The translations under genes were made by a program, and so were the position numbers. From Patescibacteria group bacterium (GTDB lineage: Bacteria > Patescibacteriota > Patescibacteriia > SG8-24 > DYFX01): a stretch of 64,000 nucleotides of DNA. A model generated the notes under the pieces. The model did not search any database and was not told the DNA's origin. It saw only the letters and a list, made by a program, of their open reading frames with translations. Within the stretch, counting starts at the first letter, position 1, and every line of letters begins with the position of its first letter. The DNA lies in NCBI GenBank assembly GCA_030583805.1, contig CP129476.1, positions 1,030,657 to 1,094,656 on the forward strand. The letters run 5' to 3'. Positions 1 through 46,316 of the stretch are shown piece after piece.

Positions 1-1896
1 GACATTTACCACTACTCTGCAGCGGGCAATGAAGGCCACTACGATAACGAGCGATACGCTTCAACAACGCCTCAATACAAGATCGTTATTCCGAACGATT
101 CTGACGAGAGTACAGCTGAGTGTCAACAGCAGTTTGGAGGTTCGTGCAGCGGATCGGGTTTCGGCTCGACGGTCTATCCGGACGGAAGCCGCATTGTCAC
201 GAACCCGCGCCAAGACGTCTTCGCGGACTGTAATGATGACGGCCAGGACAATATTGATAACTCTGAGGATGATGCGGGCGACTCACAACCTTTCACGGAG
301 GATGACGTCGTGAACGGGGTGACGACGGCACGCGGTCTCTACTACCTGAACCGCGCGAACAACTGGCAGGTCGACGCCTCCGACAACGAAGGCAAGATCG
401 GCTTCCAGGCACGCTTCGACACGAACGGCCTTTTGAAGGACATCGTGCTGTTGGCAGAAGCGGACGCGGGGGAGAACGGCGAAGGTACCTTCGGTATCAA
501 CGCGCTCGGATTCGTCTTCAAGCCTGGCTGCGAGCAGATCGCGCAGGTCGATCAACCCGGCGAGTTCGGCGCGACCGTCGCCTTCACGGACGTGATCAAC
601 AATGTCCGCATGTTTAATGGGTACAGCGGACAGACGGATACGTCGGACCAGCTATGGCAGCACGGACTCGCGTGCAAGCCCTACGGGGCGATTGGCGCGA
701 TCGCATTGCCGCCGCCCAATAAACCGTGGACGTACGTGACGGCGCGGCTTGCGACAGAGGCGGAACAATGCACGGTACTCGATTTCGTGCGCGGTGCTCG
801 TTACGACCTCACTCCGCCCGCGGATCCTGATGACAGAGACTCTATCCGAAAACTTTTCCGCAAGGTGTTTGCGGTGTGGGATTATGTGAAGCTGAACTTC
901 ACGGCCGGCGGCCACACGTACACGCAACGATCAAACGCGGCTGCGAATCCTGCGGATAACGGCCTTACGTATTACAACGAAGCCGGTACGGTCGATCCGA
1001 CGACGCTTGGAAATCGTCACGGAATCGCGGCGGTCTTCGGCAAGGTCTGGTATCCGCCGATCGTCGCGGCTGTCGATACGAGCAACTGCGACGTGAATGG
1101 ACGCTGCAGGGTATCGAGGACGGGCGCAATGACGGTGAACGGCAGCTCGCAAGGAATTCTGCTCGGCGCGGACGGCTCGCTCAACGTGACGGCGAAGTTC
1201 TACGCTTGGGCCTCGCACAACTCGATGCCGATTCTCCAGCGCACCGTGCTCTGGGGCGACTACACCGTCAAGGAACCTCCGGCAAAGGGCTGGTACAAGA
1301 ACCAAAAGCCGTTCTGCTCGCCGGATATCTCTGACGACAATGCGGTCGGCGAGTGCTCCATTAACGGATTGACGTGCGACACGGACGCGGATTGCCCGGG
1401 CGGCGGCACGTGCGGAAAGAACATCGGCAACCACTTCGGCAACACGCCAGGAGCCTGCAACACCGGAACCTTCCAGTTCGACCACACCTACACCTGCACG
1501 CTGCGCGACCTGCAAACGATGCCGGCGTGTACCGGTGCGGGCGATGCGGCCGAGAACGCTCCGTGCTACCGCATCCTCGACAGCGTACCGACCTGCGTCT
1601 ACCGGCCGAAGGTCCAGATCGTCGACAACTGGGGCTGGTGCAACTGCACGGGCGAAGGCTGCGACTATACGTTGAGCAACAACGGCGCGTATCGCGAAGG
1701 CTGCTCGCTCACCAACCCTCCCGCCGACGCCAAGCCGTGGACCGAGTATTCCGGAGAAATCCGTTTGTCACCCAGGGCACAAGACGCCGCAGCCTTCGTG
1801 CCCGGAGGCGGCGGTGGTGGCGGGGGAGGCGGCGGATCCTTCGACCCCGGCATCCTTCAACAGATTCTGACCGGAGGCGGTTTGTTCAGCCTCTGA
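1..1896 (+). CDS. Secreted cysteine-rich protein, 5'-truncated by window edge; C-terminal poly-Gly (G11) tail
   Basis: Frame 1 is open from nt 1 with no stop until 1894-1896. Many Cys/Gly/Asp residues; the run GGGGGGGGGGG sits near the C-terminus. Lies immediately upstream of the T4SS-like operon. Confidence 0.5.
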   Translation, partial: DIYHYSAAGNEGHYDNERYASTTPQYKIVIPNDSDESTAECQQQFGGSCSGSGFGSTVYPDGSRIVTNPRQDVFADCNDDGQDNIDNSEDDAGDSQPFTEDDVVNGVTTARGLYYLNRANNWQVDASDNEGKIGFQARFDTNGLLKDIVLLAEADAGENGEGTFGINALGFVFKPGCEQIAQVDQPGEFGATVAFTDVINNVRMFNGYSGQTDTSDQLWQHGLACKPYGAIGAIALPPPNKPWTYVTARLATEAEQCTVLDFVRGARYDLTPPADPDDRDSIRKLFRKVFAVWDYVKLNFTAGGHTYTQRSNAAANPADNGLTYYNEAGTVDPTTLGNRHGIAAVFGKVWYPPIVAAVDTSNCDVNGRCRVSRTGAMTVNGSSQGILLGADGSLNVTAKFYAWASHNSMPILQRTVLWGDYTVKEPPAKGWYKNQKPFCSPDISDDNAVGECSINGLTCDTDADCPGGGTCGKNIGNHFGNTPGACNTGTFQFDHTYTCTLRDLQTMPACTGAGDAAENAPCYRILDSVPTCVYRPKVQIVDNWGWCNCTGEGCDYTLSNNGAYREGCSLTNPPADAKPWTEYSGEIRLSPRAQDAAAFVPGGGGGGGGGGGSFDPGILQQILTGGGLFSL

Positions 1897-1900
1897 TCCT

Positions 1901-4822
1901 ATGAACACGCTCCAGCGCATCAAAGCCAAACTGTTCCTCCTCTTCTCAGGGAAGAGGGGGCTTTGGCGTTCGATGGCGCTGGGCGTTGTCGTGTTGGCGG
2001 CCATGGCGGTTCCGGCCGCCGTGCGCGCTGGAGAATGCGGCCTCGGCAGCCCGCATTCCTGCATCGCCATGATTTTCGTCTGGATCTTCCAGATCCTGAC
2101 GAGCCTCATGGGCTTCATCTTGATCATGGAAGTCGACGCCTTGATCCGCGTGGCCCAGTATTTCAACTTCGTGTCGCCTGGACCGACGGCGGTTCAGGTC
2201 GGCTGGGTCGTGACGCGGGACTTGGCGAACATGTTCTTCATCGTGTTCCTCATGATCATCGCCTTCAGCACGGTCATCGGGTACTCGAAGTACCATTATG
2301 AACAGACGCTGAAGAAGCTCCTGATCATGGCCGTCGTCATCAACTTCTCGAAGACGATCGTCGGCTTGATGATCGACGTGAGCCAGGTCGTGATGCTTTC
2401 TTTCGTGAACGGTTTCCGTGCCGCCGCGGCCGGCAACTTCATGAATGCGTTCCAGATCAACAAGCTGCTTCGGCTCGCCGACGGCGTGTCGGACTACAAC
2501 TTCGGCTTGGTGCTGGCCATGATGCTCGCCTTCATCCTGGCCGCGATCGCGGTGTGCGTCGTTCTCGTCATGCTGGTCATGCTCGTCTTCCGCGTGATCA
2601 TGCTTTGGGTGCTGATCATCCTTTCGCCGATCGCGTTCCTCACGGCCGCCTTCCCGCTCAGCGGCAATTATTACGCGCAGTGGTGGGCTGAACTCAAAAA
2701 ATACCTGGTCGGCGGCCCGGTGATCGCGTTTTTCTTGTGGCTGGCGCTGGCGACGGCTCAAGCGACGGGAGGAAATCTCTCGTCCGCACAGGAAGGCTGG
2801 GGTGTACAATCCACGGCTTCATCGCAAGAAGTGCAAGGACAGGCGGCGCGCCTCGAGCTCAACAGGCCGCAGATTCCGAGCGAGGCTGGGCGTACCGACA
2901 CTATTCTCAGCATGGTGATCGTCACCTGCATCATGTTCGCCGGATTGAAATTCGCGTCCGATCCGGCGATCGGTGGCATGGCGGCCGGTTTCGCCGGCAA
3001 GGTGAGGAGCAAGGCGGTATCCGCGCTTCGTGCGGGTACAGTTGGCGTTGCCGGCTATGGTTTGAAGCGCGCAGCTGAACCGCTTGCGACGGGCGTTGGC
3101 AGGGGTTTGGCGCGCGTTCCGCTCGTCGGCGGCGCCGGCCGCTACTTGGCGCTGACAGGCGAGAAGTGGAAGAAGGACCGCATCGCCAGCCGCGAAAAGA
3201 CCTTCGGCGGTCCGGAAGATTTCGCGCGTCTCAGCCCGGGCGCCTTCGTGCGGCAGATGAGTTCGCTGTCCCAGAAGCGCAAGCTTGATGATGTCGATAA
3301 GAAACGCCTGGACGGCATGCTTTCGACCGGTTTGAAAAATCCGGCTTTGGCGCAGAGTTTGACGAAGAGCGGACAAGGCCACGACACGCTCGACCAGCTT
3401 ATCCAGCAATCCAGCGGCAAGGGGTTGCAGGACATTGTCGGCACGGCGATTTCCGATAAGAACGCCAGTTCTTGGATGAAGGGCGACCCCGATCTCTTGA
3501 AGCGCACCTACGACAAGCTCCGATCGGAGTGGAAGGACAAAGATGGCAATGTGCTCGACCCGAACATGGCCAAGACGGTCGGAGAGTTCGAGCAAAAGTT
3601 CGCCGTGCCGCTGCACAAGAACGGATTGTTCAGCTCGATCCCTTCGGTCGCCGACGAAAAGCTGAAGCAGCTCGTGCCGAAGATGTCGTCCGACGATATC
3701 GGCGGTATTGCCAAGGATGACATGGGCTTCTTCATGAAGCACATGACCTCCGGTCAGCTCAAGAAGGTCATGTCCGACGGCAAGCCGGATCAGCTCGCCG
3801 GCGTCGGAGAAGAATTGAATAAGATGCCGCAGAAAGACGCGCTCGCCTTCATGCGCGAGAAGGGTTTCAGCGCGACGGATATCCCCACGAGCTGGTATTC
3901 CAGCAAGGATGAGAACGGCAAGGTGCAGTTCAGTAAAAATATCGCCGACTTCGTCTTGGCGTCGACAGCAGGAAACGCGGAGGCGCGCGCTAAGGTTATG
4001 GCGGATCCTGGACGCGCTGACGCATTGCGCAGCGCGGCGACGCGCGGCTTGAGTGGCGCTACGGCATTGAAGGACGACAACAAGATCGCTGCCGCTGCCG
4101 TTCAGGCGATGTCGGTTGGCGCCTTGAAAGTCGATGATCTGAAAAACGATTCGAAGCTGCTCGGCGTGCTTGGCAGCAGCATGGATACGGCGGCGCTTGC
4201 TCGCGGTATCAACAAGGATGATGCCGGACAATTGTCTGTCGCGCGCGAGGCGTTCAAGGCCGTTATGGCGCATGATCCGACCCGCGTACGCAACCTGAGT
4301 AAGAACGATCTCTACAACAAGCTTTTGCCGTCGAAGCAGGAAATCGACGCGGCGGTGGCCGCGCAGGCGGCCGGCGTGGCGCAGCAGAAAGCCGGAGAGC
4401 GTGTCGTTCAGAACAAGGGATTGGCTGACGAAGCATCAGAGCTCGTTGCCAATATGGATGCGCAACTGAAGACTCTTGCAAGAGAGATTGGAGAGGATAA
4501 ACTCGCGAGCCGGACCACGACAGCTAAGGAAGAACAGGAGGAAAGGTTGACGAAGGCATTGGAAAATCTCAGCCAAGCGACGCAGAAGCGCGGAGATGCT
4601 GAGAACGAGCTGGCGCGTCTTACGCAGCGTTTGACGGACGCACGCTCGAGTGGTGCGGATGCGGACAGTATCTCCGGCCTTGAAAGCGCGATCAAGGGCT
4701 TGGAGAGCAATATGCAAGAGTTGGAAGCTGGCTTGGCAAAGCAAGTCGCTCTTTCGAAAGGTATAAAAATCGATGAAGGCGGCGGCCGCAAGAACCGTCG
4801 TGGGGGAGGGGCGAACGTATGA
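1901..4822 (+). CDS. VirB6/TrbL-like polytopic membrane protein with long charged/coiled-coil C-terminal extension
   Basis: N-terminal ~330 aa contain 6-7 hydrophobic helices (e.g. IAMIFVWIFQILTSLMGFILI, MFFIVFLMIIAFSTVIGY). The remaining ~640 aa are K/D/A/E-rich and helical. Operon context with PrgI-like and VirB4 genes. Stop overlaps the next start (ATGA). Confidence 0.5.
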   Translation: MNTLQRIKAKLFLLFSGKRGLWRSMALGVVVLAAMAVPAAVRAGECGLGSPHSCIAMIFVWIFQILTSLMGFILIMEVDALIRVAQYFNFVSPGPTAVQVGWVVTRDLANMFFIVFLMIIAFSTVIGYSKYHYEQTLKKLLIMAVVINFSKTIVGLMIDVSQVVMLSFVNGFRAAAAGNFMNAFQINKLLRLADGVSDYNFGLVLAMMLAFILAAIAVCVVLVMLVMLVFRVIMLWVLIILSPIAFLTAAFPLSGNYYAQWWAELKKYLVGGPVIAFFLWLALATAQATGGNLSSAQEGWGVQSTASSQEVQGQAARLELNRPQIPSEAGRTDTILSMVIVTCIMFAGLKFASDPAIGGMAAGFAGKVRSKAVSALRAGTVGVAGYGLKRAAEPLATGVGRGLARVPLVGGAGRYLALTGEKWKKDRIASREKTFGGPEDFARLSPGAFVRQMSSLSQKRKLDDVDKKRLDGMLSTGLKNPALAQSLTKSGQGHDTLDQLIQQSSGKGLQDIVGTAISDKNASSWMKGDPDLLKRTYDKLRSEWKDKDGNVLDPNMAKTVGEFEQKFAVPLHKNGLFSSIPSVADEKLKQLVPKMSSDDIGGIAKDDMGFFMKHMTSGQLKKVMSDGKPDQLAGVGEELNKMPQKDALAFMREKGFSATDIPTSWYSSKDENGKVQFSKNIADFVLASTAGNAEARAKVMADPGRADALRSAATRGLSGATALKDDNKIAAAAVQAMSVGALKVDDLKNDSKLLGVLGSSMDTAALARGINKDDAGQLSVAREAFKAVMAHDPTRVRNLSKNDLYNKLLPSKQEIDAAVAAQAAGVAQQKAGERVVQNKGLADEASELVANMDAQLKTLAREIGEDKLASRTTTAKEEQEERLTKALENLSQATQKRGDAENELARLTQRLTDARSSGADADSISGLESAIKGLESNMQELEAGLAKQVALSKGIKIDEGGGRKNRRGGGANV

Positions 4823-6567
4823 TCGCGTCTGACGTCCTGCAGCGGAAGATCGATGCGCTGCCGGAGCCGGTGCTCGAGTACCTCTATTCGGAGCGCGCGG
4901 GCGCCCTGAATTTGGAAATCATCGAGCAGCACCAGCTGAACGAAAAACAGGAAGAAGCGTACTTCCAAATCCTGCGCGAACTGTTCGTCAAAGATCTTCC
5001 GCTTGAGCGCTTGCTGCTTGAGCTGAAATCCAAGCTCGGCCTCGATGACGCCAAGGCGAAAGCGCTGGCCATCGATATCGCGGGCAAGCGCCTCTTGCCG
5101 CTCGACAAGTGGCTCGCCGACGTTACGGCGTTTTTGCGCGCGCTCGGCGCCGACCCGAAAACGTTCCCGGATTTCCGCGTAACGATCGCGCGCCGCACGG
5201 TCGACGAGGCCGTGGAGGAGATTACGACGTCCGTCGCGTCCGAAGCGACCGGTCATCCGCAGCAGCGGTTGCAGAACGTCGTCGAGTCGGTGCTCGCCGG
5301 CGTGCGTACCGAAGCGCAGGCGCTCGACGTGCTGACCAGGCCGGAAAAAATCGGCGGTGTCGGTCTCGAGCCGAAAGCGGCCGAGCGCGTGCTTGAAGAG
5401 ATTCGCGAGGAATCGCATGCCGTCATTTTGGATCAGCGCGCGCCGCGGCACGAGAAAAAAGAGGAAGCCGCCCCGGCGAAAGCCAAGAACGTCGGGCTCG
5501 AATTGACGCCGGAGGACGCGCTCGAAGTCGCGCAGTTCAAGAAGGCGACGCCGGCCGTCGATATCGACGCGCTCGTGCAAGAAATTTATCTTGCGTCCGG
5601 CCTTGCTACGCAAGATGAGGCCATGGCGAAGCGCGTGAAGACGATTATCGGCAACCGCTTGCGCGACGTGCGCGACCAAATGGAAACGCTCGAGATCATG
5701 ATCCAGCCGAAAGAGCTGGGCGGTTTGAGCATGGGTCAGGACGCGGCACGCGCGCTCTTGAACCTCATTCAATCGCGTTTGCAAAAGACGGACACGGCGG
5801 CGCAAGCGAAGGTCCAGACGGAAAAGAAGAAGTGGGTGGAAACGGAGCGTTTGCAAAAAGCGCAGTCGGAAACCCAGGCGAACGTTGAGCAGAAAACGGA
5901 GCTTGAACAGCTGTACCAAAGCATCGTTTCAAAATCGAAAAAGGTCGCTCCGACGCCGGAGAAACCCGCCGCCGTAGCGACGATGTTGGACGGAAAGTCT
6001 GCCGCGCCGGCGAATCTTCCGATTTCTTCGGCCAGTCCCGTGCCTCCGGACTTCCGCGCGCCCGCCGCTCCGCCCGAAGAGCCCGCTGTTTCCGCCCCAG
6101 CCGCTCCGCCCGCCCGCCCGCCGCTTCCGCCCCCGGTCACGATGGTGAAGCCGATGCCCGCCCCCGCGCAGCCGCCGGCACCGGTTGCCGCGCCGGCATC
6201 ATTCGCGCAGCGGCCGAAACTCGACGACGTGAAAGCGTCGCCGAAATTGACCGGCCCGGTCGAAGAGCTTCGGGCGATCACCATCCTCGACTTCCGCCGC
6301 TTGTCCAGGGATCCGAAGGAAGCCTGCGTGAAGATCAAGGACAAGATCGATTTGCTCGGAGAGCAGTCGTACACCCGTCGGTCAGAGGGGATCGCTGCTT
6401 GGACCGCTTCCGAGGTGACCAGGACCTACCTCGAATTGATGCGGGAAAGCTTGAATGGCACGCCCCTTACGGAGGCGATCGCCGCTCGCGAAGCGGCCAA
6501 AAAGCCGGTACTTACGGCCGACGAGTTTCGGGCCGTGGCCGATTTGAGCCGGCAACTACGATATTAA
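4819..6567 (+). CDS. Hypothetical Pro/Ala-rich protein in T4SS-like operon
   Basis: 582 aa ORF translationally coupled to the upstream gene. Central proline-rich low-complexity segment (PPEEPAVSAPAAPPARPPLPPP). No recognisable catalytic motif. Confidence 0.45.
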   Translation: MIASDVLQRKIDALPEPVLEYLYSERAGALNLEIIEQHQLNEKQEEAYFQILRELFVKDLPLERLLLELKSKLGLDDAKAKALAIDIAGKRLLPLDKWLADVTAFLRALGADPKTFPDFRVTIARRTVDEAVEEITTSVASEATGHPQQRLQNVVESVLAGVRTEAQALDVLTRPEKIGGVGLEPKAAERVLEEIREESHAVILDQRAPRHEKKEEAAPAKAKNVGLELTPEDALEVAQFKKATPAVDIDALVQEIYLASGLATQDEAMAKRVKTIIGNRLRDVRDQMETLEIMIQPKELGGLSMGQDAARALLNLIQSRLQKTDTAAQAKVQTEKKKWVETERLQKAQSETQANVEQKTELEQLYQSIVSKSKKVAPTPEKPAAVATMLDGKSAAPANLPISSASPVPPDFRAPAAPPEEPAVSAPAAPPARPPLPPPVTMVKPMPAPAQPPAPVAAPASFAQRPKLDDVKASPKLTGPVEELRAITILDFRRLSRDPKEACVKIKDKIDLLGEQSYTRRSEGIAAWTASEVTRTYLELMRESLNGTPLTEAIAAREAAKKPVLTADEFRAVADLSRQLRY

Positions 6568-6607
6568 GGGGGGAGCGCGGCAGCGTAACCTGTGGTAAAA
6601 TACCGGC

Positions 6608-7036
6608 ATGCCCCAGTTCGTCGTCCCGCAATTCATCGACGTCGAGGACAAGATTCTCGGCCCGATCACGACACGGCAGTTCGTCATCCTGATGGTCGAC
6701 GGGCTCGTGATGTTTATCGTATACAAAATCCTGAGCCTGCCGTGGGCGATTCTGACCGACGTGTTGCTCCTGACGTCCGGTCTCGTGCTCGCGTTCGTGC
6801 GCATCAACGGGCAGCCCTTCCACTATTTCCTGCTGAATGTCCTTCAGACGTGGCGGCGTCCCCACGTGCGCGTGTGGAACAAGGAACTGAGCGACGCCGA
6901 AATCATCGCGCTTTCAAAAGTTGAACCGCCCCCGCCTCCGCCCGCCAAGCCGTACAAAGAGGCATTGACGACGTCGCGGCTTTCCGAGCTCGCGCTCGTC
7001 GTAAACACGGGCGGCGTCTACCAACCCGAAGAATGA
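6608..7036 (+). CDS. PrgI/VirB3-like small membrane protein of Gram-positive-type T4SS
   Basis: N-terminal QFVVPQFIDVEDKILGPITTRQFVILMV followed by two TM helices matches the PrgI family signature. Proline-rich tail (EPPPPPPAKP). Sits directly upstream of VirB4. Confidence 0.6.
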   Translation: MPQFVVPQFIDVEDKILGPITTRQFVILMVDGLVMFIVYKILSLPWAILTDVLLLTSGLVLAFVRINGQPFHYFLLNVLQTWRRPHVRVWNKELSDAEIIALSKVEPPPPPPAKPYKEALTTSRLSELALVVNTGGVYQPEE

Positions 7037-7055
7037 CCCGACCTTAGGAGGATCT

Positions 7056-7760
7056 ATGGCCCAGGCGAAACCACAACTCATGCAGAGCAAGAAGCTCGCG
7101 GGAGGGAAGCCGTCCAGCTCCACCCAGCAGTTTTTGGACGTCGCCGAGATCCGCGAAGACGTGGTCGTCATGAAGGATGGCACGATGCGCGCCGTGCTGC
7201 TCGTTTCCAGCCTGAACTTTTCGTTGAAGTCGGAAGACGAGCAGGAGGCGATCATCCAGGGCTACGTTTCCTTCCTGAATTCTCTGGAATCGCCGGTGCA
7301 GATCCAGATTCAATCGCGCAAGCTGAACGTCGACGACTATTTGAACCGGCTCAAGGAACAGGAAAAAACGCAGACGAACGAGCTCTTGCGCACGCAGATC
7401 GCCGACTATCGCCAGTTCGTGAAAGAGCTGGTCGATCTCGGCGAGATCATGCAGAAAAAGTTTTTCATCGTCGTGCCGTACAACCCGGCTTCGTCGAAGC
7501 GCAAGGGATTCTTCGCGCGCCTGTCGGAAGTCCTGACGCCGCTCGTTTCGGCCCGCTTGCGCGAAGAGCAGTTCCGTCAGCGCAAGAAGGATATTCTGGT
7601 GAAGGTCGATTCCATCCGCGCAGGCCTGAATTCGATGGGGCTCACGAGCGTCATGCTCGACACGCAGGGCCTGATCGAGCTGTATTACACGGCCTTCAAC
7701 CCGCAATCGATGGAGCGGCAGAAGCTTGAAAAAATGGACGCCTTACGCGTCGAAGCCTGA
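7056..7760 (+). CDS. VirB4/TraC-family N-terminal segment; in-frame with the downstream VirB4 ORF and separated from it only by a TGA
   Basis: Strong RBS (AGGAGG) 7 nt upstream. Sequence (FLDVAEIREDVVVMKDGTMRAVLLVSSLNFSLKSEDEQEAIIQGYVSFLNSL...) resembles the extreme N-terminus of Firmicutes-type VirB4. The stop at 7758-7760 is in the same frame as the ATG at 7764. Confidence 0.55.
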   Translation: MAQAKPQLMQSKKLAGGKPSSSTQQFLDVAEIREDVVVMKDGTMRAVLLVSSLNFSLKSEDEQEAIIQGYVSFLNSLESPVQIQIQSRKLNVDDYLNRLKEQEKTQTNELLRTQIADYRQFVKELVDLGEIMQKKFFIVVPYNPASSKRKGFFARLSEVLTPLVSARLREEQFRQRKKDILVKVDSIRAGLNSMGLTSVMLDTQGLIELYYTAFNPQSMERQKLEKMDALRVEA

Positions 7761-7763
7761 TTT

Positions 7764-9689
7764 ATGGCCTTCAATCCCATTACGGCCACGCGCGAGGCAG
7801 CCGCTCCGAAACCGGAGAAGCCGAAGCTGACCGCCGAAGAAAAAAAACGCCTTGCGCAGGAAGAGCGCATCAAGCTCGAGGAAGAGCGCATTTACCGCAA
7901 GGGCGTCGTCACGCTGCGCGATTTGATCGCGCCGGCGGCGTTTGAAGTCAAATCGAACCTCGTGCGGCTGGGCGACCTCTACGCGCGCACCGTTTTCGTC
8001 GTTACCTACCCGCGCTATCTTTCGCTCGGTTGGTTCACGCCGATCATCAATTTTTCGGCGACGATGGATATCGGCATGTTCTTCTATCCCGTCCAGCCGG
8101 AGATCATTTTGAAACAGCTGAAAAACAAAGTAGGTATTTTGGAAGCCCAGATCATCGGCGACGCCGAGAAAGGCGCCGCGCGCGATCCGCTCCGCGAAAC
8201 GGCGTTGCGCGACATTGAAAAGCTGCGCGACGACCTGACGCAGGGGATCGAGCACTTCTTCCAATTCGCGCTGTACGTGACGATTTTCGCGCCGTCCGAA
8301 AAGGAACTCGACGACCTGACCAACCAGGTCGAAGGCATGTTCGGTTCGAAGCTGATCTACACCAAGCGCGTGCTCTACCAGTCGGAACAGGGTTTCAACT
8401 CGACCCTGCCGTCCGGGAACGACGAGCTCATGATCACCTTCAACATGAACACGAGCCCGATCGCTTCGGGTTTCCCGTTCGTCTCGGCCGACCTGACGTC
8501 CGACAATGGCATCCTCTACGGCATCAACCGTCACAACAACAGCCTGATCTTGTTCGACCGCTTCTCGCTGCAGAACGCCAACGCGGTCGTCTTCGCCACG
8601 TCCGGCGCGGGTAAGAGCTACACCGTGAAGCTCGAGGTGCTCCGTTCGCTCATGCTCGGCATCGAGGTGATCATCATCGACCCGGAAATGGAGTACAAGC
8701 ACCTTTCTGACGCGGTCGGCGGCACCTACATCAATATCTCGCTCGCTTCCGAATCGAAGCTCAACATCTTCGATTTGCCGCGCCCGATGGGGGAGGAAGT
8801 GCGTTCCGAAGACATCATCCGCTCGGCCGTCATCACGGTGAAAGGCCTCATGCGCATCATGTTCGGCAGCGTCACTACAGCCGAAGACTCGATCATCGAC
8901 CGCGCGCTTTTGGAAACGTACGCGAAAAAGGACATTATCCCGGGCGTCGACCTCGCCACCATCGAGCCGCCGATCCTTTCCGATTTCCAGCAGGTGCTCG
9001 AAGGCATCACGGGCACGGAGGATTTGCAGATCAAGCTCCGCAAGTACACTGAAGGCACCTTCGCCGGACTTCTCAACTCGCCGACGACGGTCGAAATGAA
9101 CAACAAGCTCGTCGTCTTCAGCGTCCGCGACCTCGAAGACGAATTGCGCCCGCTTGGCGTCTACACGATCGTGAACTACATTTGGAACGTCGTCCGCTCG
9201 GAACGTAAAAAGCGCATCCTAGTGATCGACGAAGCCTGGTGGCTCATGCAGAACGACGACTCGGCGAAATTCATCTTCGCCCTGGTCAAGCGCTGCCGCA
9301 AATATTTCTTGGGCGTCACGACGATCACGCAGGACGTCAACGACTTCCTGCGCTCGCCTTACGGCCAGGCGATCGTCACCAACTCCGCGCTCCAGATCCT
9401 CCTCAAGCAGTCGGCAGCCTCGATCGATCTCGTCCAAAAGACGTTCTTGCTGACGGAAGGCGAGAAGTACCTGCTGCTCGAAGCCGGCGTCGGCGAAGGC
9501 ATTTTCTTCGCGGGTTCGCGGCACGCTGCCATCAAAGTCGTCGCTTCGTACGCCGAAGACCAAATCATTACGTCTGATCCCCGCCAGCTACTTGAGATCG
9601 AAAATGCCAAAAAAGAATTGGATGAACAGCTCATCCAGGCCTCCGAGAATCCCGGATCGCCTGCGAATCCCGCTCAACAACCCGCATAA
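7764..9689 (+). CDS. virB4: VirB4/TraC/CagE-family conjugal transfer ATPase (C-terminal ~3/4)
   Basis: Walker A (VVFATSGAGKSYTVK), Walker B (ILVIDEAWWLM), the LIAP...GWF region and a C-terminal ATPase core; typical VirB4 architecture. Confidence 0.85.
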   Translation: MAFNPITATREAAAPKPEKPKLTAEEKKRLAQEERIKLEEERIYRKGVVTLRDLIAPAAFEVKSNLVRLGDLYARTVFVVTYPRYLSLGWFTPIINFSATMDIGMFFYPVQPEIILKQLKNKVGILEAQIIGDAEKGAARDPLRETALRDIEKLRDDLTQGIEHFFQFALYVTIFAPSEKELDDLTNQVEGMFGSKLIYTKRVLYQSEQGFNSTLPSGNDELMITFNMNTSPIASGFPFVSADLTSDNGILYGINRHNNSLILFDRFSLQNANAVVFATSGAGKSYTVKLEVLRSLMLGIEVIIIDPEMEYKHLSDAVGGTYINISLASESKLNIFDLPRPMGEEVRSEDIIRSAVITVKGLMRIMFGSVTTAEDSIIDRALLETYAKKDIIPGVDLATIEPPILSDFQQVLEGITGTEDLQIKLRKYTEGTFAGLLNSPTTVEMNNKLVVFSVRDLEDELRPLGVYTIVNYIWNVVRSERKKRILVIDEAWWLMQNDDSAKFIFALVKRCRKYFLGVTTITQDVNDFLRSPYGQAIVTNSALQILLKQSAASIDLVQKTFLLTEGEKYLLLEAGVGEGIFFAGSRHAAIKVVASYAEDQIITSDPRQLLEIENAKKELDEQLIQASENPGSPANPAQQPA

Positions 9690-9694
9690 CGCCT

Positions 9695-10294
9695 ATGACT
9701 CCACGCCGCCGCGCCATCCTGATTATCGCGCTCGCCGCGCTCCTGCTCGGCGTGATTATCGTTGTCATCATTCTCGTGCGCCGCGCGGTGCCGAGCGCGC
9801 AGCCGCCGGCCGCCCAGCCGGTCGCGGAAGCGCCGACGCCGGAACAAGCCGCCGCCGCCGCGATCATCCAGAATCCCTTGGCGCCCGCCGTTACCGAGCC
9901 TGTCGGCCGCACGGCCGCGGCGCAGATGGGCGAGCTGTTCGCCGAGCGGTACGGCAGCTACTCGAACCAGGGCGACTACCAGAACGTGCGCGATCTTCTG
10001 CCCGTGATGACCGCCAAGTACCGCGCGCAGACGGAAGCGATGCTCGAAGACGTCGAACCGCAGCGCGAGCAGACGTTCGAGGGCGTGACGAGCGTAAAGA
10101 TTTCTTCCGAAGTGCGTTCCTATAACGAAGCGGCGGGCACCGCGGTCGTGGCCGTGACGCTTCAGCAAGAGAAAGTTTCCGGCGTCACGACGACGGTCGG
10201 GTACCGCACGCTCCGCATGGAATTGAAGCGGGAGGGGCAAGACTGGCGCGTCGACGCTTCACGCTGGGAGAATGAATTGACACCGATCAACTGA
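9695..10294 (+). CDS. Membrane-anchored periplasmic protein, possible VirB8/PrgL-like (NTF2-like fold) component
   Basis: Single N-terminal TM (ILIIALAALLLGVIIVVIILV), Pro/Ala linker, ~120 aa globular domain. Position immediately after VirB4. Assignment by context only. Confidence 0.3.
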   Translation: MTPRRRAILIIALAALLLGVIIVVIILVRRAVPSAQPPAAQPVAEAPTPEQAAAAAIIQNPLAPAVTEPVGRTAAAQMGELFAERYGSYSNQGDYQNVRDLLPVMTAKYRAQTEAMLEDVEPQREQTFEGVTSVKISSEVRSYNEAAGTAVVAVTLQQEKVSGVTTTVGYRTLRMELKREGQDWRVDASRWENELTPIN

Positions 10295-10314
10295 ATACCG
10301 TAGGACGCGCCCGT

Positions 10315-10968
10315 ATGTTCGGGCGCGTTTTTGATTTTCTCTTCCCGTTGGAGTGCATCGCCTGCGGCGCTTCAGGAGCGCATGCCTGCCGCGCGTGCCT
10401 CGCGAGCGTACCACTCGCGCCGCAAAGTTGGCGTTTGCCGGAGCTGCGCGCTTCGGCCGCTTTCGCCTACGGTCATCCGTTCGTGCGGCGGCTGCTGCAT
10501 GACGTGAAGTTCGAGCGCTGGACGTGCGCGCGTCCGGCTTTAGAGGCGCTGGCCGGACGATGGGCCGTGAAAGTCGGAAAGGGTTTTTGTCCTCCGGAAA
10601 CGGTCGTCGTGTCCGTGCCGTTGCACGCGAGAAAGCTTCGCGAGCGCGGGTTCAATCAAGCGGCGTTCTTGGCGGACGGCATCGCCGCCACGCTCGGTTT
10701 GCGTCGCGGCGACGCGTGGCTCTCCCGCGTCGTTCGCACGCGGCCGCAAACCGAAGCCGAGAACCGCGCGCGCAACGTGGTGGGCGCGTTTCATGCGCAG
10801 TCGTCCGTTTCGATGCGCGGACGGCCGGTTTTGCTCGTCGATGACGTCTGGACGACCGGCGCTACGATGCGGGAGTGCGCCAAGGCGTTGCGGCAAGCGG
10901 GCGCGGGGCAGGTGTTCGGTTTCGCCCTGGCCTGGGGGAGGGGAGAAAAAGAAAAGCTCCGCAGGTAG
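10315..10968 (+). CDS. comFC: ComF family protein (phosphoribosyltransferase-like competence protein ComFC)
   Basis: N-terminal Cys4 zinc finger (CIACG...CRAC), then PRTase-type fold with LLVDDVWTTGATM motif. Confidence 0.8.
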   Translation: MFGRVFDFLFPLECIACGASGAHACRACLASVPLAPQSWRLPELRASAAFAYGHPFVRRLLHDVKFERWTCARPALEALAGRWAVKVGKGFCPPETVVVSVPLHARKLRERGFNQAAFLADGIAATLGLRRGDAWLSRVVRTRPQTEAENRARNVVGAFHAQSSVSMRGRPVLLVDDVWTTGATMRECAKALRQAGAGQVFGFALAWGRGEKEKLRR

Positions 10969-10978
10969 CGGAGCGCGG

Positions 10979-11365
10979 TCAGGGCTTGCGGTCGTTGTGC
11001 TCGGGCGAAACGTACCGTTCCTCCGTGAGACCGATCAGGATCGTGTCGGCTTGGGCGCGGCCTTCGTGCATGACGCCGAGGGGGACGAGCAGTCGCTTCC
11101 CGGGCACCAGTACGAACTCGTTCGTCTCGTCGCCGCCGAGCGCGGTGAGCTTGAATGTGACTTGGCCGCGCAGGACGAAGAACAGCTCGCCGTACAGGTG
11201 ATAGTGCCTGCCCAGCACGATGTGCTCGCCCTGCTTCACCTCGGCCACCTTCACCTGCGCCGCCCCAGAGAAGCCGCGGACGTCGCCGTTGAACGGCGCA
11301 TAGAGCTTGCGACGGTGATCTTCGTGGCCTTCCGGAATATCTTCGAACACGACGCCATCGATCAT
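10979..11365 (-). CDS. Cupin-domain protein
   Basis: Beta-rich ~128 aa protein with cupin-like His pattern (HYHLYGELFFVLRGQ). RBS AAGGGAGGA lies 7 nt upstream of the second ATG (start chosen there). Confidence 0.45.
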   Translation of the reverse strand: MIDGVVFEDIPEGHEDHRRKLYAPFNGDVRGFSGAAQVKVAEVKQGEHIVLGRHYHLYGELFFVLRGQVTFKLTALGGDETNEFVLVPGKRLLVPLGVMHEGRAQADTILIGLTEERYVSPEHNDRKP

Positions 11366-11466
11366 CGGCATTCCTCCCTTCGGACGGGGCAAGAATAGCA
11401 GAAACGACCCAAAAGTCAACGCCCCGGTTTGCTTTCCCGCCGTTTTTGCGTAGGATGATGGAGCGT

Positions 11467-11554
11467 GGAGGGGTGGCCGAGCGGTTTAAGGCAGCGGTCT
11501 TGAAAACCGCCATTCCGCAAGGAATCGTGAGTTCGAATCTCACCCCCTCCGCCA
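11467..11554 (+). tRNA. tRNA-Ser (anticodon TGA), type II with long variable arm, CCA encoded
   Basis: Cloverleaf derived by hand: acceptor GGAGGGG/CCCCTCC, anticodon loop CTTGAAA, T-loop TTCGAAT, 3' GCCA. Confidence 0.85.
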
Positions 11555-11563
11555 GAGATTTCC

Positions 11564-11809
11564 ATGAAAAATTGGCACACCTACATCGTACGCTGCGCCG
11601 ACGGGAGTTTGTACGTCGGCATCACCACGGATCTCGAGGCGAGAATGTTGAAGCACAATGAAGGGAAGGGCGGAGCCTATACGCGCAGCCATAGGCCCGT
11701 CGTTTTGGTTTGGCATGAGACTGCTTCCTCCGAGTCGGCAGCGCGGAAAAGGGAAGCGGAGCTAAAGAAGTGGCCGAAGGCGAAAAAGGAGGAACTTGCC
11801 GGGGGATGA
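11564..11809 (+). CDS. GIY-YIG nuclease family protein (small stand-alone URI-domain protein)
   Basis: [18 protein letters not shown]...R...H motif typical of the GIY-YIG domain. 81 aa. Located 9 nt downstream of tRNA-Ser. Confidence 0.85.
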
Positions 11810-11894
11810 TGCCCCCCTTTGCCCTCTTGGCGCAGGCGAGGTATACTCCTGGCGATTTAAAATTAATCGATTCACTGAAGCTTTTTTATTTTGT

Positions 11895-14800
11895 ATGGTT
11901 ACGCTGAAGAAATCGAAAATTGTCCGTTTTTTGAGCGGTGTCGCCGTTGCGCTCCTGCTCGCCGTCTCTGCAAATACTATCCACACCCCTTCCGCACAGG
12001 CGGAGGTGCCGGACTTGGTTACGCATCTCAAGTTTGATAACGACGCGACCGACTCGGTGGGGGATAACGACTTCATTCTTCGCGGCACGACGAGCTTCAG
12101 CACGCAGGTTGCGCCCGTCGCGGGCAACGTCGCTTCGCTTCAGATCGGCGGAGTCGAGTCGCAGGCGCTCGGCGGTTGGGCTTTCTTCGACGGCTGGACG
12201 GGCGGCAGTCTCGCGTATTGGTTGCGCATCGATAGCGCAACAGCGCAGACATGGCCTGAAGGAAGCACGCGCGACTTGCTTTTCAAATACCAGATTCTTC
12301 AAACGAAAATCGTGAAGAACGCGGGTCAGCTCTGGCTCGTGACGACGCACGGCGACGGTACGTCGTTCGGCTCGAACACCTGGGTGACTTCCACGACCCC
12401 GCTTCCGGTGGACGCGTGGGTTCATGTCGTCACCACGCATACGGGCACGACCGCTTCCATCTACCTCAACGGCCAAGCGGCGGGTTCTGGTGACACGAAT
12501 AAAACGCTCGGCATCGCAAGCAGCGACATTTTCGAGATTCATCCGTACGACGGCGGTTTCGCCGGCCTGATCGATGAATTCCAAGCGTACAACCGCGCAA
12601 TCACGCAGGCTGAAGCGTCGGAATTGGCGGGAGGCGGCGGCGCTCCGACGACATTCACGGTTACGGCTTCCGCCGGCGCGAACGGTGCGATCACTCCGTC
12701 CGGCTCGGTCGTCGTGAACAGCGGCGCCAACCAGAGCTTCACGATCACGCCGAACGGCGGCTACCAGGTCGCGGACGTTTTGGTTGACGGCGTCTCGCAG
12801 GGTGCCGTTACGAGCTACACCTTCACGAACGTCACGGCCAACCACACGATCTCGGCTTCGTTCTCGGCGATTCCTCCGACGAACTACACGATCACCGCGA
12901 GCGCCGGCACGGGCGGTTCGATCACGCCGAGCGGTTCCGTTTCCGTATCCTCCGGACAGACCCAGGCCTTCACGATCACGCCGAACGGCGGTTATCAAAT
13001 CGCCAATGTCCTGGTGGACGGCGTTTCCGTCGGCGCGGTTTCGAGCTACGTTTTCTCGAACGTGAACGCCAACCACACGATTTCGGCGTCCTTCTCGACG
13101 GCGACGCCGCCGGAAGGCACGTTCCAGCTCGACGACCAATACATCACCGGACTCGCCAGCCCGACCGCGATGGCGTACGCACCGGACGGCCGCTTGTTCA
13201 TCACCGAACAGGCCGGCGCCGTGCGTATCGTCACGCCTGAAGGGCAGCTGCTCTCGCAGCCGTTCCTGGTCACGACCAACATGCGCAGCGATGAAGAGCG
13301 CGGTCTCTTGGGCATCGCCTTCGACCCGAACTTCACGACGAACAACTACGTCTACATCTTCTACACCGAGAACTCGCTCGGCGCGCGCCTCAGCCGCTTC
13401 ACGGCCAACGGCAACGTCGTCGTTCCGGGCAGCGAAGTCGTCCTGCTCGAGTACTACAACATCTCCGGCAACCATCGCGGCGGCGACGTGCACTTCGGTC
13501 CGGACGGCAAGCTGTACCTCGCTCTCGGCGACGCCGGCGAACCGCTCGAGTCGCAGTCGGTCACGACCTACAACGGCAAGATCCTTCGCTTGAACAGCGA
13601 CGGTTCGATTCCGAGCGACAACCCGACGACCTTCGTGGATAGCTCGGGCCAAACCTTGACTCCGGCCGGCCCGTACCGCGCCATCTGGGCGATGGGCCTC
13701 CGCAACCCGTACCGCTTCTCCTTCCACGCCACGACCGGAAAGATGCACATCAATGACGTCGGCGCGGGTCTTTGGGAAGAAGTGAACGTGGGCCAGGCTG
13801 GACGCAACTACGGCTGGCCGACCTGCGAAGGCTACTGCACGAGCCCGAATCCGAACGTTCAGGATCCGATCTACGTGCATGAGCGCGGCATCGAAGGCTG
13901 CGCCATCACGGGCGGCGCTTTCTACACGGGCAGCCAGTTCCCGGTCGAGTACCACAACGACTACTTCATCATCGACTACTGCAGCACCTGGCTTCGCTAC
14001 CTGAATGCGTCCGACGACGCTCAGGCGACGTTCCCGCTCTCGATCCCGATGTTCTCGGTCGACCTGAAGACCGCGACGGACGGCAGCCTTCTGATCGCCG
14101 GACACGGTTCCGGCACGATCTCCCGCCTTTCCTTCGTGAGCAGCAGCTCGAACAGCAATCCGGTCGCAAGCGCCTTGGCTACTCCGACGTCCGGACCTTC
14201 GCCGCTCTCGGTGTTGTTTGACGGTACCGGTTCGACGGATCCGGACAACGATCCGCTGACGTACAGCTGGGCGTTCGGCGACGGCGCAACCGGCACTGGC
14301 GCGACCGCAAACCACGTCTACGCGACGGGCGGCGCCTACACGGCCGTCCTGACCGTCACCGACGGCAACGGCGGCTCCGACACGGACAGTGTCCTGATTT
14401 CGGTCGGCGCTCCGCCCTCGGCCTCGATCCTCACGCCTTCCATTGGAACGCTCTACACGGCCGGCGATACGATCGCGTTCTCCGGATCGGCCACCGACCC
14501 GGATGATGGTGTCCTGCCCCCGAGTGCCTTCAGCTGGACCGTCGTGTTCCATCACGATGCGCACACGCACCCGCACCTCGGCCCTCTGACCGGCGTCGCG
14601 AGCAGCACCTTCACGATCCCGACGTTCGGCCACACGGAAGAAAATGTCTGGTACCGCATCAACCTGACAGTGACCGACTCGGCCGGCCTCCAGGCGACGG
14701 CATCGCGCGACGTCTATCCGCGCAAGGCGAACGTCACGCTTGATTCGAATATTCCGGGCACGCAGGTGCTTCTCGACGGCTCGCCCGTCGCGACCCCGTA

Positions 14801-15620
14801 CACGTTCGTCGGCGTCGTCGGTGTGCAGCGCACGATCGGCGTCACCTCGCCGCAAACGATCGGGGGACAGGGGTATGAATTCGGTTCCTGGTCCGACGGC
14901 GGCGCGCAGAGTCACACGATCGTGACGCCGAGTGCGACCACGACGTACGCCGTCGCCATGAATGTCCAAACGACGCCGACCTTGCCGGACCCTTCCCTTC
15001 ACTGGAAATTCGACAACAGTGAGATTGAAGAAGTCTTGGGCACGACGACGGTTCCGCGTGGAACGATCGTCTACACGACCGATACGGCGCCGACCGCCAG
15101 CGCAAATGCTGGCGCGGTCCAATTCAACGGAGCGGTTGGCACCTACTATGCGACGAACGGCACGAACATCCTGAACGCCTGGCCGGCCGCGACGAGCTCG
15201 GTCTGGGTGAAAATCACCGCCGCAACCGCCAATAGCTGGAACAACAACAGCTACCACGCCTTGCTGTTCAAATACCGCACGTTCCAGACCCGCATCCAGA
15301 AGACCTCGACGGGCTTGAAGTTCGTCGCCACGCATAGCGACGGCAGCGCACCCTTCAACACGCACATCACGTCGACAACTTCGATTCCGACCGATACCTG
15401 GGTCAACCTCGTGACGGTGCATGAAGGCACCACACTCACGATGTACATCAACGGCCAGCTGGCCGGCAGCGGCTCGACCGGCAGGACGTTCGGCGGCGCC
15501 AACACCGAAGGCCTTGACATCATCGGTCACGGCGGCAACTACACCGGACTGCTCGACGATCTCCGCTTCTACAACACCGCCTTCACCGAGGCGCAGGTAC
15601 AGCAGATCCCGCTGCAGTAA
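11895..15620 (+). CDS. Giant secreted multidomain protein: signal peptide, LamG/ConA-like lectin domains, InlB-type B-repeats, PQQ-dependent glucose/sorbosone-dehydrogenase-like beta-propeller, PKD domain
   Basis: Signal peptide [28 protein letters not shown]. Repeated ~75-aa [18 protein letters not shown]...[12 protein letters not shown] modules. SGDH-like propeller motifs ([30 protein letters not shown]). PKD-like segment ([28 protein letters not shown]). LamG-like N- and C-terminal domains. Confidence 0.7.
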
Positions 15621-15629
15621 ATCGGAAAA

Positions 15630-15661
15630 GAAAAAAGACCCGTTCATACGGGTCTTTTTTC
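15630..15661. terminator. Bidirectional intrinsic terminator
   Basis: AAAAAAGACCCGTTCATACGGGTCTTTTTT, a perfect GC-rich hairpin flanked by A and T runs. Lies between the giant gene and a convergent tRNA. Confidence 0.65.
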
Positions 15662-15662
15662 G

Positions 15663-15753
15663 TGGCGGAGGGTGTGGGGATCGAACCCACAAGACCAGTT
15701 GCCCGGTCGCAGTTTAGCAAACTGCTGCCTTACCATTCGGCGCAACCCTCCGC
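15663..15753 (-). tRNA. tRNA-Ser (anticodon GCT), type II
   Basis: Reverse complement folds with acceptor GCGGAGG/CCTCCGC, anticodon loop TTGCTAA, long variable arm, T-loop TTCGATC, CCA. Confidence 0.8.
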
Positions 15754-15916
15754 GTCGCTTACCGGCCTCGCTTCCGCAAGAACGCGCTCCGCGGTTCTTG
15801 CTCTCGCTCGGCCGCCGCTCCTCCTGCTCGCTGCGCTCGCATCATTCGGACGCCGGTAGGGCAGGGAGAGCTCGTGGCAGCCCTATCCTACGGTATTTAA
15901 AAAGCCTTGTAAAGCG

Positions 15917-15925
15917 TGGTATACT
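15917..15925 (+). promoter_or_regulatory. Extended -10 promoter element TGGTATACT; start codon 9 nt downstream (leaderless or near-leaderless)
   Basis: TGnTATACT motif. The ATG of the downstream gene lies at 15934. Confidence 0.45.
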
Positions 15926-15933
15926 GTCCCCAT

Positions 15934-16452: not shown

Positions 16453-16465
16453 AGTTGGAGAAAGC

Positions 16466-16492
16466 AAAAACAGCGGGTAAACCGCTGTTTTT
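16466..16492. terminator. Bidirectional intrinsic terminator
   Basis: AAAAACAGCGGGTAAACCGCTGTTTTT. Confidence 0.6.
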
Positions 16493-16495
16493 GCA

Positions 16496-16572: not shown

Positions 16573-16616
16573 CGACTACTCGCACAGCCTACCCCATGAG
16601 CCCCGGCCTGTCAACC

Positions 16617-16625: not shown

Positions 16626-16635
16626 GCCGCTATCT

Positions 16636-46276: not shown

Positions 46277-46316
46277 AAGGAAGTGAGCAGGCGCAAGCCC
46301 GTACTTAAATCTAGCC

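What the first reader, a model, noticed from the sequence alone, without database searches (positions are those of the whole stretch)
7056..9689. VirB4 ATPase interrupted by a single in-frame TGA (7758-7760)
ORFs 7056-7760 and 7764-9689 are in the same reading frame, separated only by TGA + TTT. Together they reconstitute an ~875-aa VirB4. The first ORF resembles the extreme N-terminus of Firmicutes-type VirB4; the second carries the LIAP/GWF region and both Walker motifs. Candidate explanations are a natural split gene, a recent nonsense mutation (pseudogenisation), programmed readthrough/selenocysteine-type recoding, or a sequencing error. Both pieces keep good start context: AGGAGG before the first, ATG 3 nt after the stop.
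Basis: seen in the sequence. Interest (0 to 1): 0.55.

Follow-up and report, generated by a model that had tools for sequence, protein, structure and literature searches.

The report
Normal two-gene TrsD plus VirB4 pair
The apparent stop codon inside a VirB4 secretion ATPase is the normal boundary between two separate genes, a small TrsD-like protein and a short VirB4, an arrangement found across Patescibacteria and already published, so the finding is ordinary.

Summary
ORF1 (7056-7760, 234 aa) and ORF2 (7764-9689, 641 aa) lie in one frame, separated by TGA and TTT.

The reading as an interrupted gene is not supported.
- All 120 listed database homologues of ORF1 (97-61% identity) are stand-alone proteins of 224-251 aa.
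- All 150 best 50%-cluster representatives are 443 aa or shorter, and none carries ORF2 sequence.
- In 77 loci, mostly species representatives and largely labelled as Patescibacteria, ORF1 ends in a real stop (TAA 51, TAG 18, TGA 8). ORF2 then starts at its own ATG, usually 1-10 nt later.
- The relative frame of the two ORFs is 0, 1 or 2 in 23, 26 and 28 loci. In the 97%-identical relative the gap is 4 nt, so the ORFs are out of frame. The in-frame layout here is chance.

The order PrgI/VirB3, ORF1, ORF2 mirrors trsC-trsD-trsE of Staphylococcus plasmid pSK41. ORF1 aligns with TrsD (hhalign E 2.6e-6) and ORF2 with TrsE (E 3e-40).

Against a fused Bacillota VirB4 the two ORFs cover complementary, non-overlapping parts.

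A 2025 paper (PMC12102498) already reports TrsD next to VirB4 as the most abundant type IV secretion component in Patescibacteria.

I found no sign of recoding, pseudogenisation or sequencing error. Interest is low.

The parts
6608..7036 (+). PrgI/VirB3-like small membrane protein (142 aa, 2 hydrophobic segments). It holds the position that trsC holds in pSK41.
   Evidence: Pfam PF12666 PrgI, E 3e-9. Hydrophobic segments at aa 20-38 and 41-59. The same gene sits directly upstream of ORF1 in L002, L003 and L004.
7046..7051 (+). Shine-Dalgarno-like AGGAGG serving ORF1
   Evidence: Read from the sequence. GGAGGA is also present upstream of ORF1 in L001, L002 and L005.
7056..7760 (+). ORF1: a stand-alone TrsD-like / 'TraC-like' protein (234 aa). 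It corresponds to the first subdomain of the VirB4 N-terminal domain plus a conserved helical tail.
   Evidence: 4700 homologues; the 120 listed are all 224-251 aa and carry PF26593. NCBIfam hits to TrsD/TraD and to the N-termini of two VirB4 families. hhalign against pSK41 TrsD: probability 88.7%, E 2.6e-6. BLASTP against the fused Carboxydocella VirB4: aa 17-142 match 5-129, E 3e-19. In a Foldseek search with the AlphaFold model, the top 14 hits are all TrwK/VirB4.
7758..7760 (+). Genuine TGA stop codon of ORF1
   Evidence: The equivalent position is a stop in 77 of 77 loci (TAA 51, TAG 18, TGA 8). TGA ends 14 of 44 long ORFs in the window.
7761..7763 (+). 3-nt intercistronic spacer (TTT)
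   Evidence: In relatives the spacer is mostly 1-10 nt and ranges from -1 to 717 nt, in all three frame relations. It is 4 nt in the 97%-identical L001.
7764..9689 (+). ORF2: a short VirB4/TrsE-type ATPase (641 aa). It comprises the remainder of the N-terminal domain and the C-terminal ATPase domain.
   Evidence: NCBIfam CD1110 VirB4, E 5.6e-104, 348.9 bits against a cutoff of 325, model positions 167-729 of 752. Pfam P-loop_TraG, AAA_10 and DUF87. PDB 4ag5 VirB4 C-terminal domain, E 3e-45. pSK41 TrsE, E 3e-40.
8598..8624 (+). Walker A (TSGAGKSYT)
   Evidence: aligned to the P-loop of 4ag5
9216..9239 (+). Walker B (ILVIDEAW)
   Evidence: aligned to 4ag5
1901..6567 (+). Two conserved upstream genes of the cluster: a 973-aa polytopic membrane protein (about 9 hydrophobic segments) and a 582-aa protein. 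Neither has a Pfam hit.
   Evidence: genes of similar size lie upstream of PrgI in L002 and L004
9695..10968 (+). Conserved downstream genes: a 199-aa single-pass membrane protein and a 217-aa protein with zinc-ribbon and phosphoribosyltransferase domains (ComFC-like by my own recognition of that domain pair)
   Evidence: same order in L001, L002 and L004

Best explanation
These are two separate, intact genes of the chromosomal type IV secretion cluster typical of Patescibacteria. ORF1 is a TrsD-like protein and ORF2 is a short VirB4 (TrsE-type) ATPase.

Together they hold the sequence that other monoderm systems encode as one VirB4 polypeptide. ORF1 supplies the first roughly 130 residues of the N-terminal domain plus a conserved helical tail. 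ORF2 supplies the rest of the N-terminal domain and the ATPase domain.

The TGA at 7758-7760 is the normal ORF1 stop. ORF2 starts at its own ATG 3 nt later. That the two are in frame is coincidence.

Inferred, not shown:
- The two proteins assemble non-covalently into a VirB4-like unit docked on the PrgI/VirB3 membrane protein.
- ORF2, which has no Shine-Dalgarno motif of its own in this lineage, is translated by coupling to ORF1 through termination and reinitiation.
For: 1. Stand-alone size is conserved. The 120 listed homologues (97-61% identity) are 224-251 aa. The best 150 of 2509 50%-cluster representatives are all 443 aa or shorter. The longer ones carry low-complexity tails, and none matches ORF2.

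2. Junction survey of 77 loci (76 relatives plus this window). ORF1 always ends in a stop (TAA 51, TAG 18, TGA 8). ORF2 always has an ATG, commonly opening M-A-F or M-A-I. The gap is mostly 1-10 nt but reaches 717 nt. The frame relation 0/1/2 is 23/26/28. Complete ORF2 copies are 618-739 aa.

3. In the closest relative, L001 (97% identity), the junction reads TGAACCTATG. The gap is 4 nt, so the ORFs are out of frame.

4. The two ORFs are complementary.
   - Against the fused 754-aa Carboxydocella VirB4, ORF1 aa 17-142 match 5-129 and ORF2 aa 26-612 match 158-750.
   - Against the NCBIfam CD1110 model, ORF1 matches positions 2-120 and ORF2 matches 167-729.

5. The architecture matches pSK41 trsC-trsD-trsE (135, 227 and 672 aa). 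The ORF1 profile against TrsD gives E 2.6e-6 over 184 columns. ORF2 against TrsE gives E 3e-40. A Pontibacillus plasmid shows the same split.

6. The AlphaFold model of ORF1 (pLDDT 72) finds only R388 TrwK/VirB4 chains as its top 14 hits.

7. Literature, PMC12102498: TrsD homologues number 2,272 in Patescibacteria, and 1,664 are associated with virB4. The copy in Ca. Southlakia epibionticum ML1 is listed as essential.
Against: - No experiment here shows that ORF1 and ORF2 proteins interact, or that ORF2 translation is coupled to ORF1.
- The TrsD NCBIfam score (36.9 bits) is far below the family cutoff (200), so the TrsD relationship is remote homology, not curated membership.
- The local Pfam copy reported no family for ORF1, although precomputed annotation lists PF26593 for its relatives.
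- The Foldseek matches are modest (E about 1e-3, TM about 0.4).
Confidence: 0.95

Rival explanations
1. A recent nonsense mutation has pseudogenised a formerly continuous 877-aa VirB4 gene.
For: The two ORFs are in frame and only TGA and TTT separate them. Fused VirB4 genes exist in some Bacillota.
Against: - The stop falls at the same place in all 77 loci surveyed, down to 51% identity, and all three stop codons are used.
- ORF2 has a conserved ATG and a conserved M-A-F N-terminus.
- Both ORFs are well conserved. L001 is 97% identical in both ORFs.
- No fused form appears among the 270 closest proteins.
Confidence: 0.01
2. Programmed stop-codon readthrough, selenocysteine insertion or an alternative genetic code (TGA read as sense) yields a fused VirB4.
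For: An in-frame TGA is the codon used for selenocysteine, and some Patescibacteria-related lineages reassign TGA (my own knowledge).
Against: - TGA terminates 14 of 44 long ORFs in the window, including four neighbours. Coding coverage is 90% under the standard code.
- Relatives use TAA or TAG at this site, and two thirds are out of frame.
- The 97% relative is out of frame.
- The region 7740-7860 folds no better than shuffles (z = -0.59).
- No tRNA-Sec was found among the three tRNAs in the window.
Confidence: 0.02
3. A sequencing or assembly error created a false stop codon.
For: None specific. A single-base miscall could create a TGA.
Against: Independent assemblies from many projects and samples show the same stop-plus-ATG junction. 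A protein 97% identical to ORF1 and of the same 234-aa length is present in ENA data.
Confidence: 0.01

Closest known systems
TrsD-VirB4 gene pair of the Patescibacteria type IV secretion system (Quinonero-Coronel et al. 2025, PMC12102498)
   Same: - A TrsD homologue lies directly upstream of a short VirB4, next to PrgI/VirB3, on the chromosome.
- The closest genome records are Patescibacteria MAGs, including Uhrbacteria, Magasanikbacteria and Falkowbacteria.
- Gene order is conserved in L001, L002 and L004.
   Different: Nothing substantive. This window is one more instance. The in-frame TGA-TTT-ATG junction is a lineage-specific accident.
trsC-trsD-trsE of Staphylococcus conjugative plasmids pSK41/pGO1 (MPF_FATA, pGO1 subclass)
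   Same: - The order is the same and the sizes are nearly the same: 135, 227 and 672 aa against 142, 234 and 641 aa.
- The ORF1 profile aligns collinearly with TrsD over 184 columns.
- ORF2 aligns with TrsE from near both N-termini.
   Different: - Homology is remote: 25% identity to TrsD and 24% to TrsE.
- The TrsD NCBIfam score is below the cutoff.
- The locus is chromosomal rather than on a conjugative plasmid. No relaxase or coupling protein was seen among the ORFs examined at 29-18663.
Single-chain monoderm VirB4 (CD1110 family), for example the 754-aa protein of Carboxydocella plasmid pCCELLA01
   Same: ORF1 and ORF2 together cover it end to end without overlap. ORF2 passes the CD1110 NCBIfam cutoff.
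   Different: It is one polypeptide, with a linker of about 28 aa (residues 130-157). Here that linker is replaced by the tail of ORF1 (about 92 aa, residues 143-234), the stop, and the first 25 residues of ORF2.
R388 TrwK / VirB4 (cryo-EM structures 7O41-7O43, 8RTB, 8RTD)
   Same: The ORF1 model matches TrwK chains as its top 14 structural hits, with 190-208 aligned columns.
   Different: TrwK is a diderm, single-chain VirB4. Sequence identity is 12-18% and TM-score about 0.4.

Membership tests
Patescibacteria-type TrsD + VirB4 split pair | A stand-alone protein of about 230 aa, homologous to the VirB4 N-terminus, encoded directly upstream of virB4 | tested here: met
   77 of 77 loci show the pair. 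ORF1 is 222-238 aa in 74 of the 75 loci where its length could be measured (the outlier, L073, is a failure of the script's ORF1 call). ORF2 is 618-739 aa.
Patescibacteria-type TrsD + VirB4 split pair | VirB3/PrgI gene adjacent to the pair | tested here: met
   Pfam PrgI, E 3e-9, for 6608-7036; the same gene is present in L002-L004
Patescibacteria-type TrsD + VirB4 split pair | Host genome is a Patescibacteria (CPR) member | tested here: inconclusive
   The closest genome records are titled as Patescibacteria, Uhrbacteria and similar (best match 78% identity). The window itself has no rRNA or other marker that I analysed. Its GC of about 60% seems high to me for the group (my own knowledge, not tested).
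TrsD/TraD family (NCBIfam NF041427) | Score at or above the curated cutoff (200 bits) | tested here: not met
   36.9 bits, E 3.2e-9. This is remote homology only. hhalign against pSK41 TrsD gives probability 88.7%, E 2.6e-6.
VirB4-like conjugal transfer ATPase, CD1110 family (NF045971) | Score at or above the curated cutoff (325 bits) | tested here: met
   ORF2 scores 348.9 bits, E 5.6e-104, but covers only model positions 167-729 of 752. ORF1 covers positions 2-120.
VirB4-like conjugal transfer ATPase, CD1110 family (NF045971) | Walker A and Walker B motifs intact | tested here: met
   TSGAGKSYT at aa 279-287 and ILVIDEAW at aa 485-492; both align to the 4ag5 VirB4 C-terminal domain
Selenoprotein / recoded gene | SECIS-like hairpin just downstream of an in-frame TGA, with the in-frame TGA conserved in orthologues | tested here: not met
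   Fold z-score -0.59. Orthologues use TAA or TAG, and 54 of 77 loci are out of frame.
Pseudogene (nonsense-disrupted VirB4) | Intact single-ORF orthologues in close relatives | tested here: not met
   No fused form among the 120 listed homologues, the 150 representatives or the 77 loci

The most novel reading that the evidence does not exclude
In this lineage the accidental in-frame TGA-TTT-ATG junction may allow low-level natural readthrough of the leaky TGA. That would produce a minor covalently fused TrsD-VirB4 alongside the two separate proteins, an incipient gene fusion resembling the single-chain Bacillota VirB4. Nothing here tests this directly. It is not conserved even in the 97%-identical relative.
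Probability: 0.03. Interest if true: 0.3.

Novelty: already known. Interest (0 to 1): 0.08.

Why it matters
It matters mainly as a caution for annotation. A TrsD-like gene followed by a short VirB4 gene is the normal state of the Patescibacteria type IV secretion cluster. It should not be flagged as a pseudogene, merged into one gene or treated as a recoding event.

The complementarity shown here gives a simple working hypothesis for TrsD, a protein the literature describes as having no assigned function. TrsD plus the short VirB4 equals one full monoderm VirB4. TrsD would then be the detached first subdomain of the VirB4 N-terminal domain.

Tried and rejected
- **SECIS or readthrough structure.** I folded 7740-7860 as RNA. 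The z-score was -0.59, so there is no special structure.
- **Alternative genetic code.** I compared ORF statistics with TGA as stop and as sense. TGA is a normal stop for 14 of 44 long ORFs.
- **Hidden fused forms.** I checked whether the longer ORF1 homologues (270-443 aa) were truncated fused VirB4 proteins. Their extra sequence is low-complexity tail rich in P, Q, S and T, and none matches ORF2.
- **Own Shine-Dalgarno site for ORF2.** ORF2 has none in the window or in L001, L002 and L005. Across the 77 loci such motifs are rare upstream of both ORFs (14 and 11 loci), so this neither proves nor excludes coupling.
- **Sequence search of ORF1 against solved structures.** It gave only a chance-level hit, E 0.17. 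The link to VirB4 structures came from the fold search.
- **Guglielmini et al. 2014 (PMC4027160).** A text search for 'TrsD' found nothing in the main text. The statement on TrsD homology is therefore cited from PMC12102498.
- **Searches not run.** I did not run a database search with ORF2. The adjacency data made it unnecessary.

Full report
**Observation**

The sequence is as described.
- ORF1 runs from ATG 7056 to TGA 7758-7760 (234 aa).
- TTT follows at 7761-7763.
- ORF2 runs from ATG 7764 to TAA 9687-9689 (641 aa), in the same frame.
- AGGAGG sits at 7046-7051, 4 nt before the ORF1 start.
- ORF2 contains LIAPAAF, LGWF, Walker A (TSGAGKSYT, aa 279-287) and Walker B (ILVIDEAW, aa 485-492).
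- ORF2 has no Shine-Dalgarno-like motif of its own.

**What the two ORFs are**

ORF2 is a VirB4-type ATPase.
- It passes the NCBIfam cutoff for the monoderm 'CD1110' VirB4 family (348.9 bits against 325, E 5.6e-104). It covers only model positions 167-729 of 752.
- It hits Pfam P-loop_TraG, AAA_10 and DUF87.
- It matches the solved C-terminal domain of a Thermoanaerobacter VirB4, 4ag5, at E 3e-45.

ORF1 corresponds to the start of VirB4.
- It has no hit in the local Pfam copy.
- In NCBIfam it matches the N-terminal ends of two VirB4 families: CD1110 positions 2-120 and the Mbov_0397 family positions 92-233. It also matches the stand-alone TrsD/TraD family. All three scores are below the curated cutoffs.
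- Its relatives carry the precomputed Pfam label PF26593 'TraC-like'.

**Is the split real and conserved?**

Yes.
- ORF1 has 4700 database homologues. The 120 listed (97-61% identity) are all 224-251 aa.
- An exhaustive HMMER search of 50%-identity cluster representatives found 2509 relatives. The best 150, down to about 33% identity, are all 443 aa or shorter.
- The longer ones carry low-complexity tails rich in P, Q, S and T, and none of them matches ORF2.
- In three look-ups of encoding contigs, the ORF1 homologue is followed directly by a 631-641-aa DUF87/P-loop_TraG protein. The gene order is PrgI, ORF1, ORF2, a protein of about 195 aa, then a phosphoribosyltransferase-domain protein.

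**Junction survey**

A scan of one genome per species returned at least 587 species with an ORF1 relative. I kept the best 80. Many record titles name Patescibacteria lineages such as Uhrbacteria, Magasanikbacteria, Falkowbacteria, Buchananbacteria and Nomurabacteria. Many others carry generic or other labels.

In 77 loci where both genes were present:
- ORF1 always ends with a stop codon (TAA 51, TAG 18, TGA 8).
- ORF2 always begins with an ATG, commonly encoding M-A-F or M-A-I.
- The gap is mostly 1-10 nt but ranges from -1 to 717 nt. Two further loci have ORF2 starting before the ORF1 stop.
- The frame of ORF2 relative to ORF1 is 0, 1 or 2 in 23, 26 and 28 loci.
- In the closest relative (L001, 97% identity in both ORFs) the junction is TGAACCTATG. 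The gap is 4 nt, so the ORFs are out of frame.

The in-frame arrangement in this window therefore has no conserved meaning.

**Rivals excluded**

- Recoding. TGA is an ordinary stop in this window. It ends 14 of 44 long ORFs, including four neighbours, and coding coverage is 90% under the standard code.
- SECIS-like hairpin. The RNA around and after the TGA folds no better than shuffles (z = -0.59). Only tRNA-Ser (two) and tRNA-Arg were found in the window.
- Recent nonsense mutation or sequencing error. Neither can explain a junction shared by independent assemblies of dozens of species.

**Where the junction falls**

Bacillota plasmids hold both forms.
- A Pontibacillus megaplasmid has a 274-aa 'hypothetical protein' that overlaps by 11 nt a 621-aa gene annotated as CD1110-family VirB4. 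This is the split form.
- Carboxydocella plasmid pCCELLA01 has a single 754-aa protein. This is the fused form.

Against the fused protein, ORF1 aa 17-142 align to residues 5-129 (E 3e-19). ORF2 aa 26-612 align to residues 158-750 (E 3e-64). The two ORFs are thus complementary and do not overlap.

The break lies in a linker of about 28 residues in the fused protein. That linker is replaced here by the tail of ORF1 (about 92 aa, residues 143-234) and the first 25 residues of ORF2. The tail is conserved: L201 and N215 are invariant in both alignments, and T203, L209 and Y214 are at least nearly so.

An AlphaFold model of ORF1 has mean pLDDT 71.9 and a beta-alpha core followed by a long helix. 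Its top 14 Foldseek hits in the PDB are all TrwK/VirB4 chains of plasmid R388. They have probability 0.99-1.00, 177-208 aligned columns and TM-scores of about 0.4.

**Closest known systems**

*pSK41.* This Staphylococcus plasmid carries trsC (135 aa), trsD (227 aa, annotated as TrsD/TraD family) and trsE (672 aa, DUF87) in the same order and with nearly the same sizes.
- The ORF1 family profile aligns with TrsD over 184 columns. ORF1 residues 15-216 match TrsD residues 26-217, with probability 88.7% and E 2.6e-6.
- ORF2 aligns with TrsE from residue 53 to residue 36 onward, at E 3e-40.

*Literature.* Quinonero-Coronel et al. 2025 (PMC12102498) state the following.
- It was the most abundant type IV secretion component found in Patescibacteria, with 2,272 homologues in 2,221 assemblies.
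- 1,664 of these were associated with virB4.
- The copy in Ca. Southlakia epibionticum ML1 is listed as essential.

**Mechanism**

Shown here: two intact, conserved cistrons whose products together cover a whole monoderm VirB4.

Inferred:
- The ORF1 protein binds the ORF2 protein non-covalently to complete the N-terminal domain. In solved systems that domain contacts VirB3 (my own knowledge of the R388 structures).
- ORF2 is translated by termination-reinitiation coupling. In this lineage it lies 3 nt after the ORF1 stop and has no Shine-Dalgarno motif, whereas ORF1 has AGGAGG.

**Verdict**

Novelty: already known. Interest: low.

Noticed in passing
window 46000-48650: A low-GC islet (GC 0.41 against about 0.60 elsewhere) lies just upstream of a DNA polymerase III alpha gene (48703-52215). 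It encodes an HTH_3 plus Peptidase_M78 (IrrE/ImmA-like) protein at 46962-48137 and a DUF4411 protein at 48140-48652, with a NERD nuclease-domain protein at 45602-46276 beside it. It looks like a horizontally acquired toxin-antitoxin or defence-like module.
   Followed up: partly
window 1901-6567 and 9695-10968: Conserved partners flank the PrgI-TrsD-VirB4 core. Upstream are a 973-aa protein with about 9 hydrophobic segments and a 582-aa protein, neither with a Pfam hit. Downstream are a 199-aa single-pass membrane protein and a zinc-ribbon plus phosphoribosyltransferase protein, which I read as ComFC-like. Genes of similar size, in the same order, flank the core in L002 and L004; L001 shows the downstream pair.
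   Followed up: partly
proteins P0145, P0189, P0197, P0232, P0233 and others: Some TrsD-like homologues carry C-terminal tails of 100-200 aa that are rich in P, Q, S, T and A and look disordered. The window's copy has no such tail. The purpose of these tails is unknown.
   Followed up: partly
L038 about 4170-4360; also L056 and L010: A few species have long spacers between the TrsD-like gene and virB4 (140-509 nt). In L038 the spacer begins with tandem CGCATAA repeats directly after the stop. L073's 717-nt value goes with a 3-aa ORF1 call and is probably a script artefact.
   Followed up: no
record titles (e.g. L006, L010, L014, L063): Many genome records carrying this Patescibacteria-type locus are titled 'uncultured Gammaproteobacteria bacterium' (binchicken and SRP co-assembly MAGs). 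One is titled Candidatus Methylomirabilis. These titles look like placeholder or wrong taxonomic labels.
   Followed up: no
window 11796-15620 (+) / 11886-15692 (-); 16636-18663 (+) / 16645-18654 (-): Very long antisense 'shadow' ORFs (1268 aa and 669 aa) mirror real genes: a GSDH/PKD/Laminin_G_3 surface protein and RecG. I take them to be mechanical by-products of the high-GC sequence rather than genes (my own reading, not tested).
   Followed up: no
window 7056-7757 (ORF1): The local Pfam-A copy reports no family for ORF1 at E 0.01 or better. Precomputed annotation gives PF26593 'TraC-like' for all of its homologues, including the 97%-identical P0001. The model is probably missing from the local library.
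   Followed up: no
window 11467-11554, 15663-15751, 16496-16572: Three tRNA genes lie between the secretion cluster and recG: tRNA-Ser(TGA) on the plus strand, and tRNA-Ser(GCT) and tRNA-Arg(GCG) on the minus strand.
   Followed up: no
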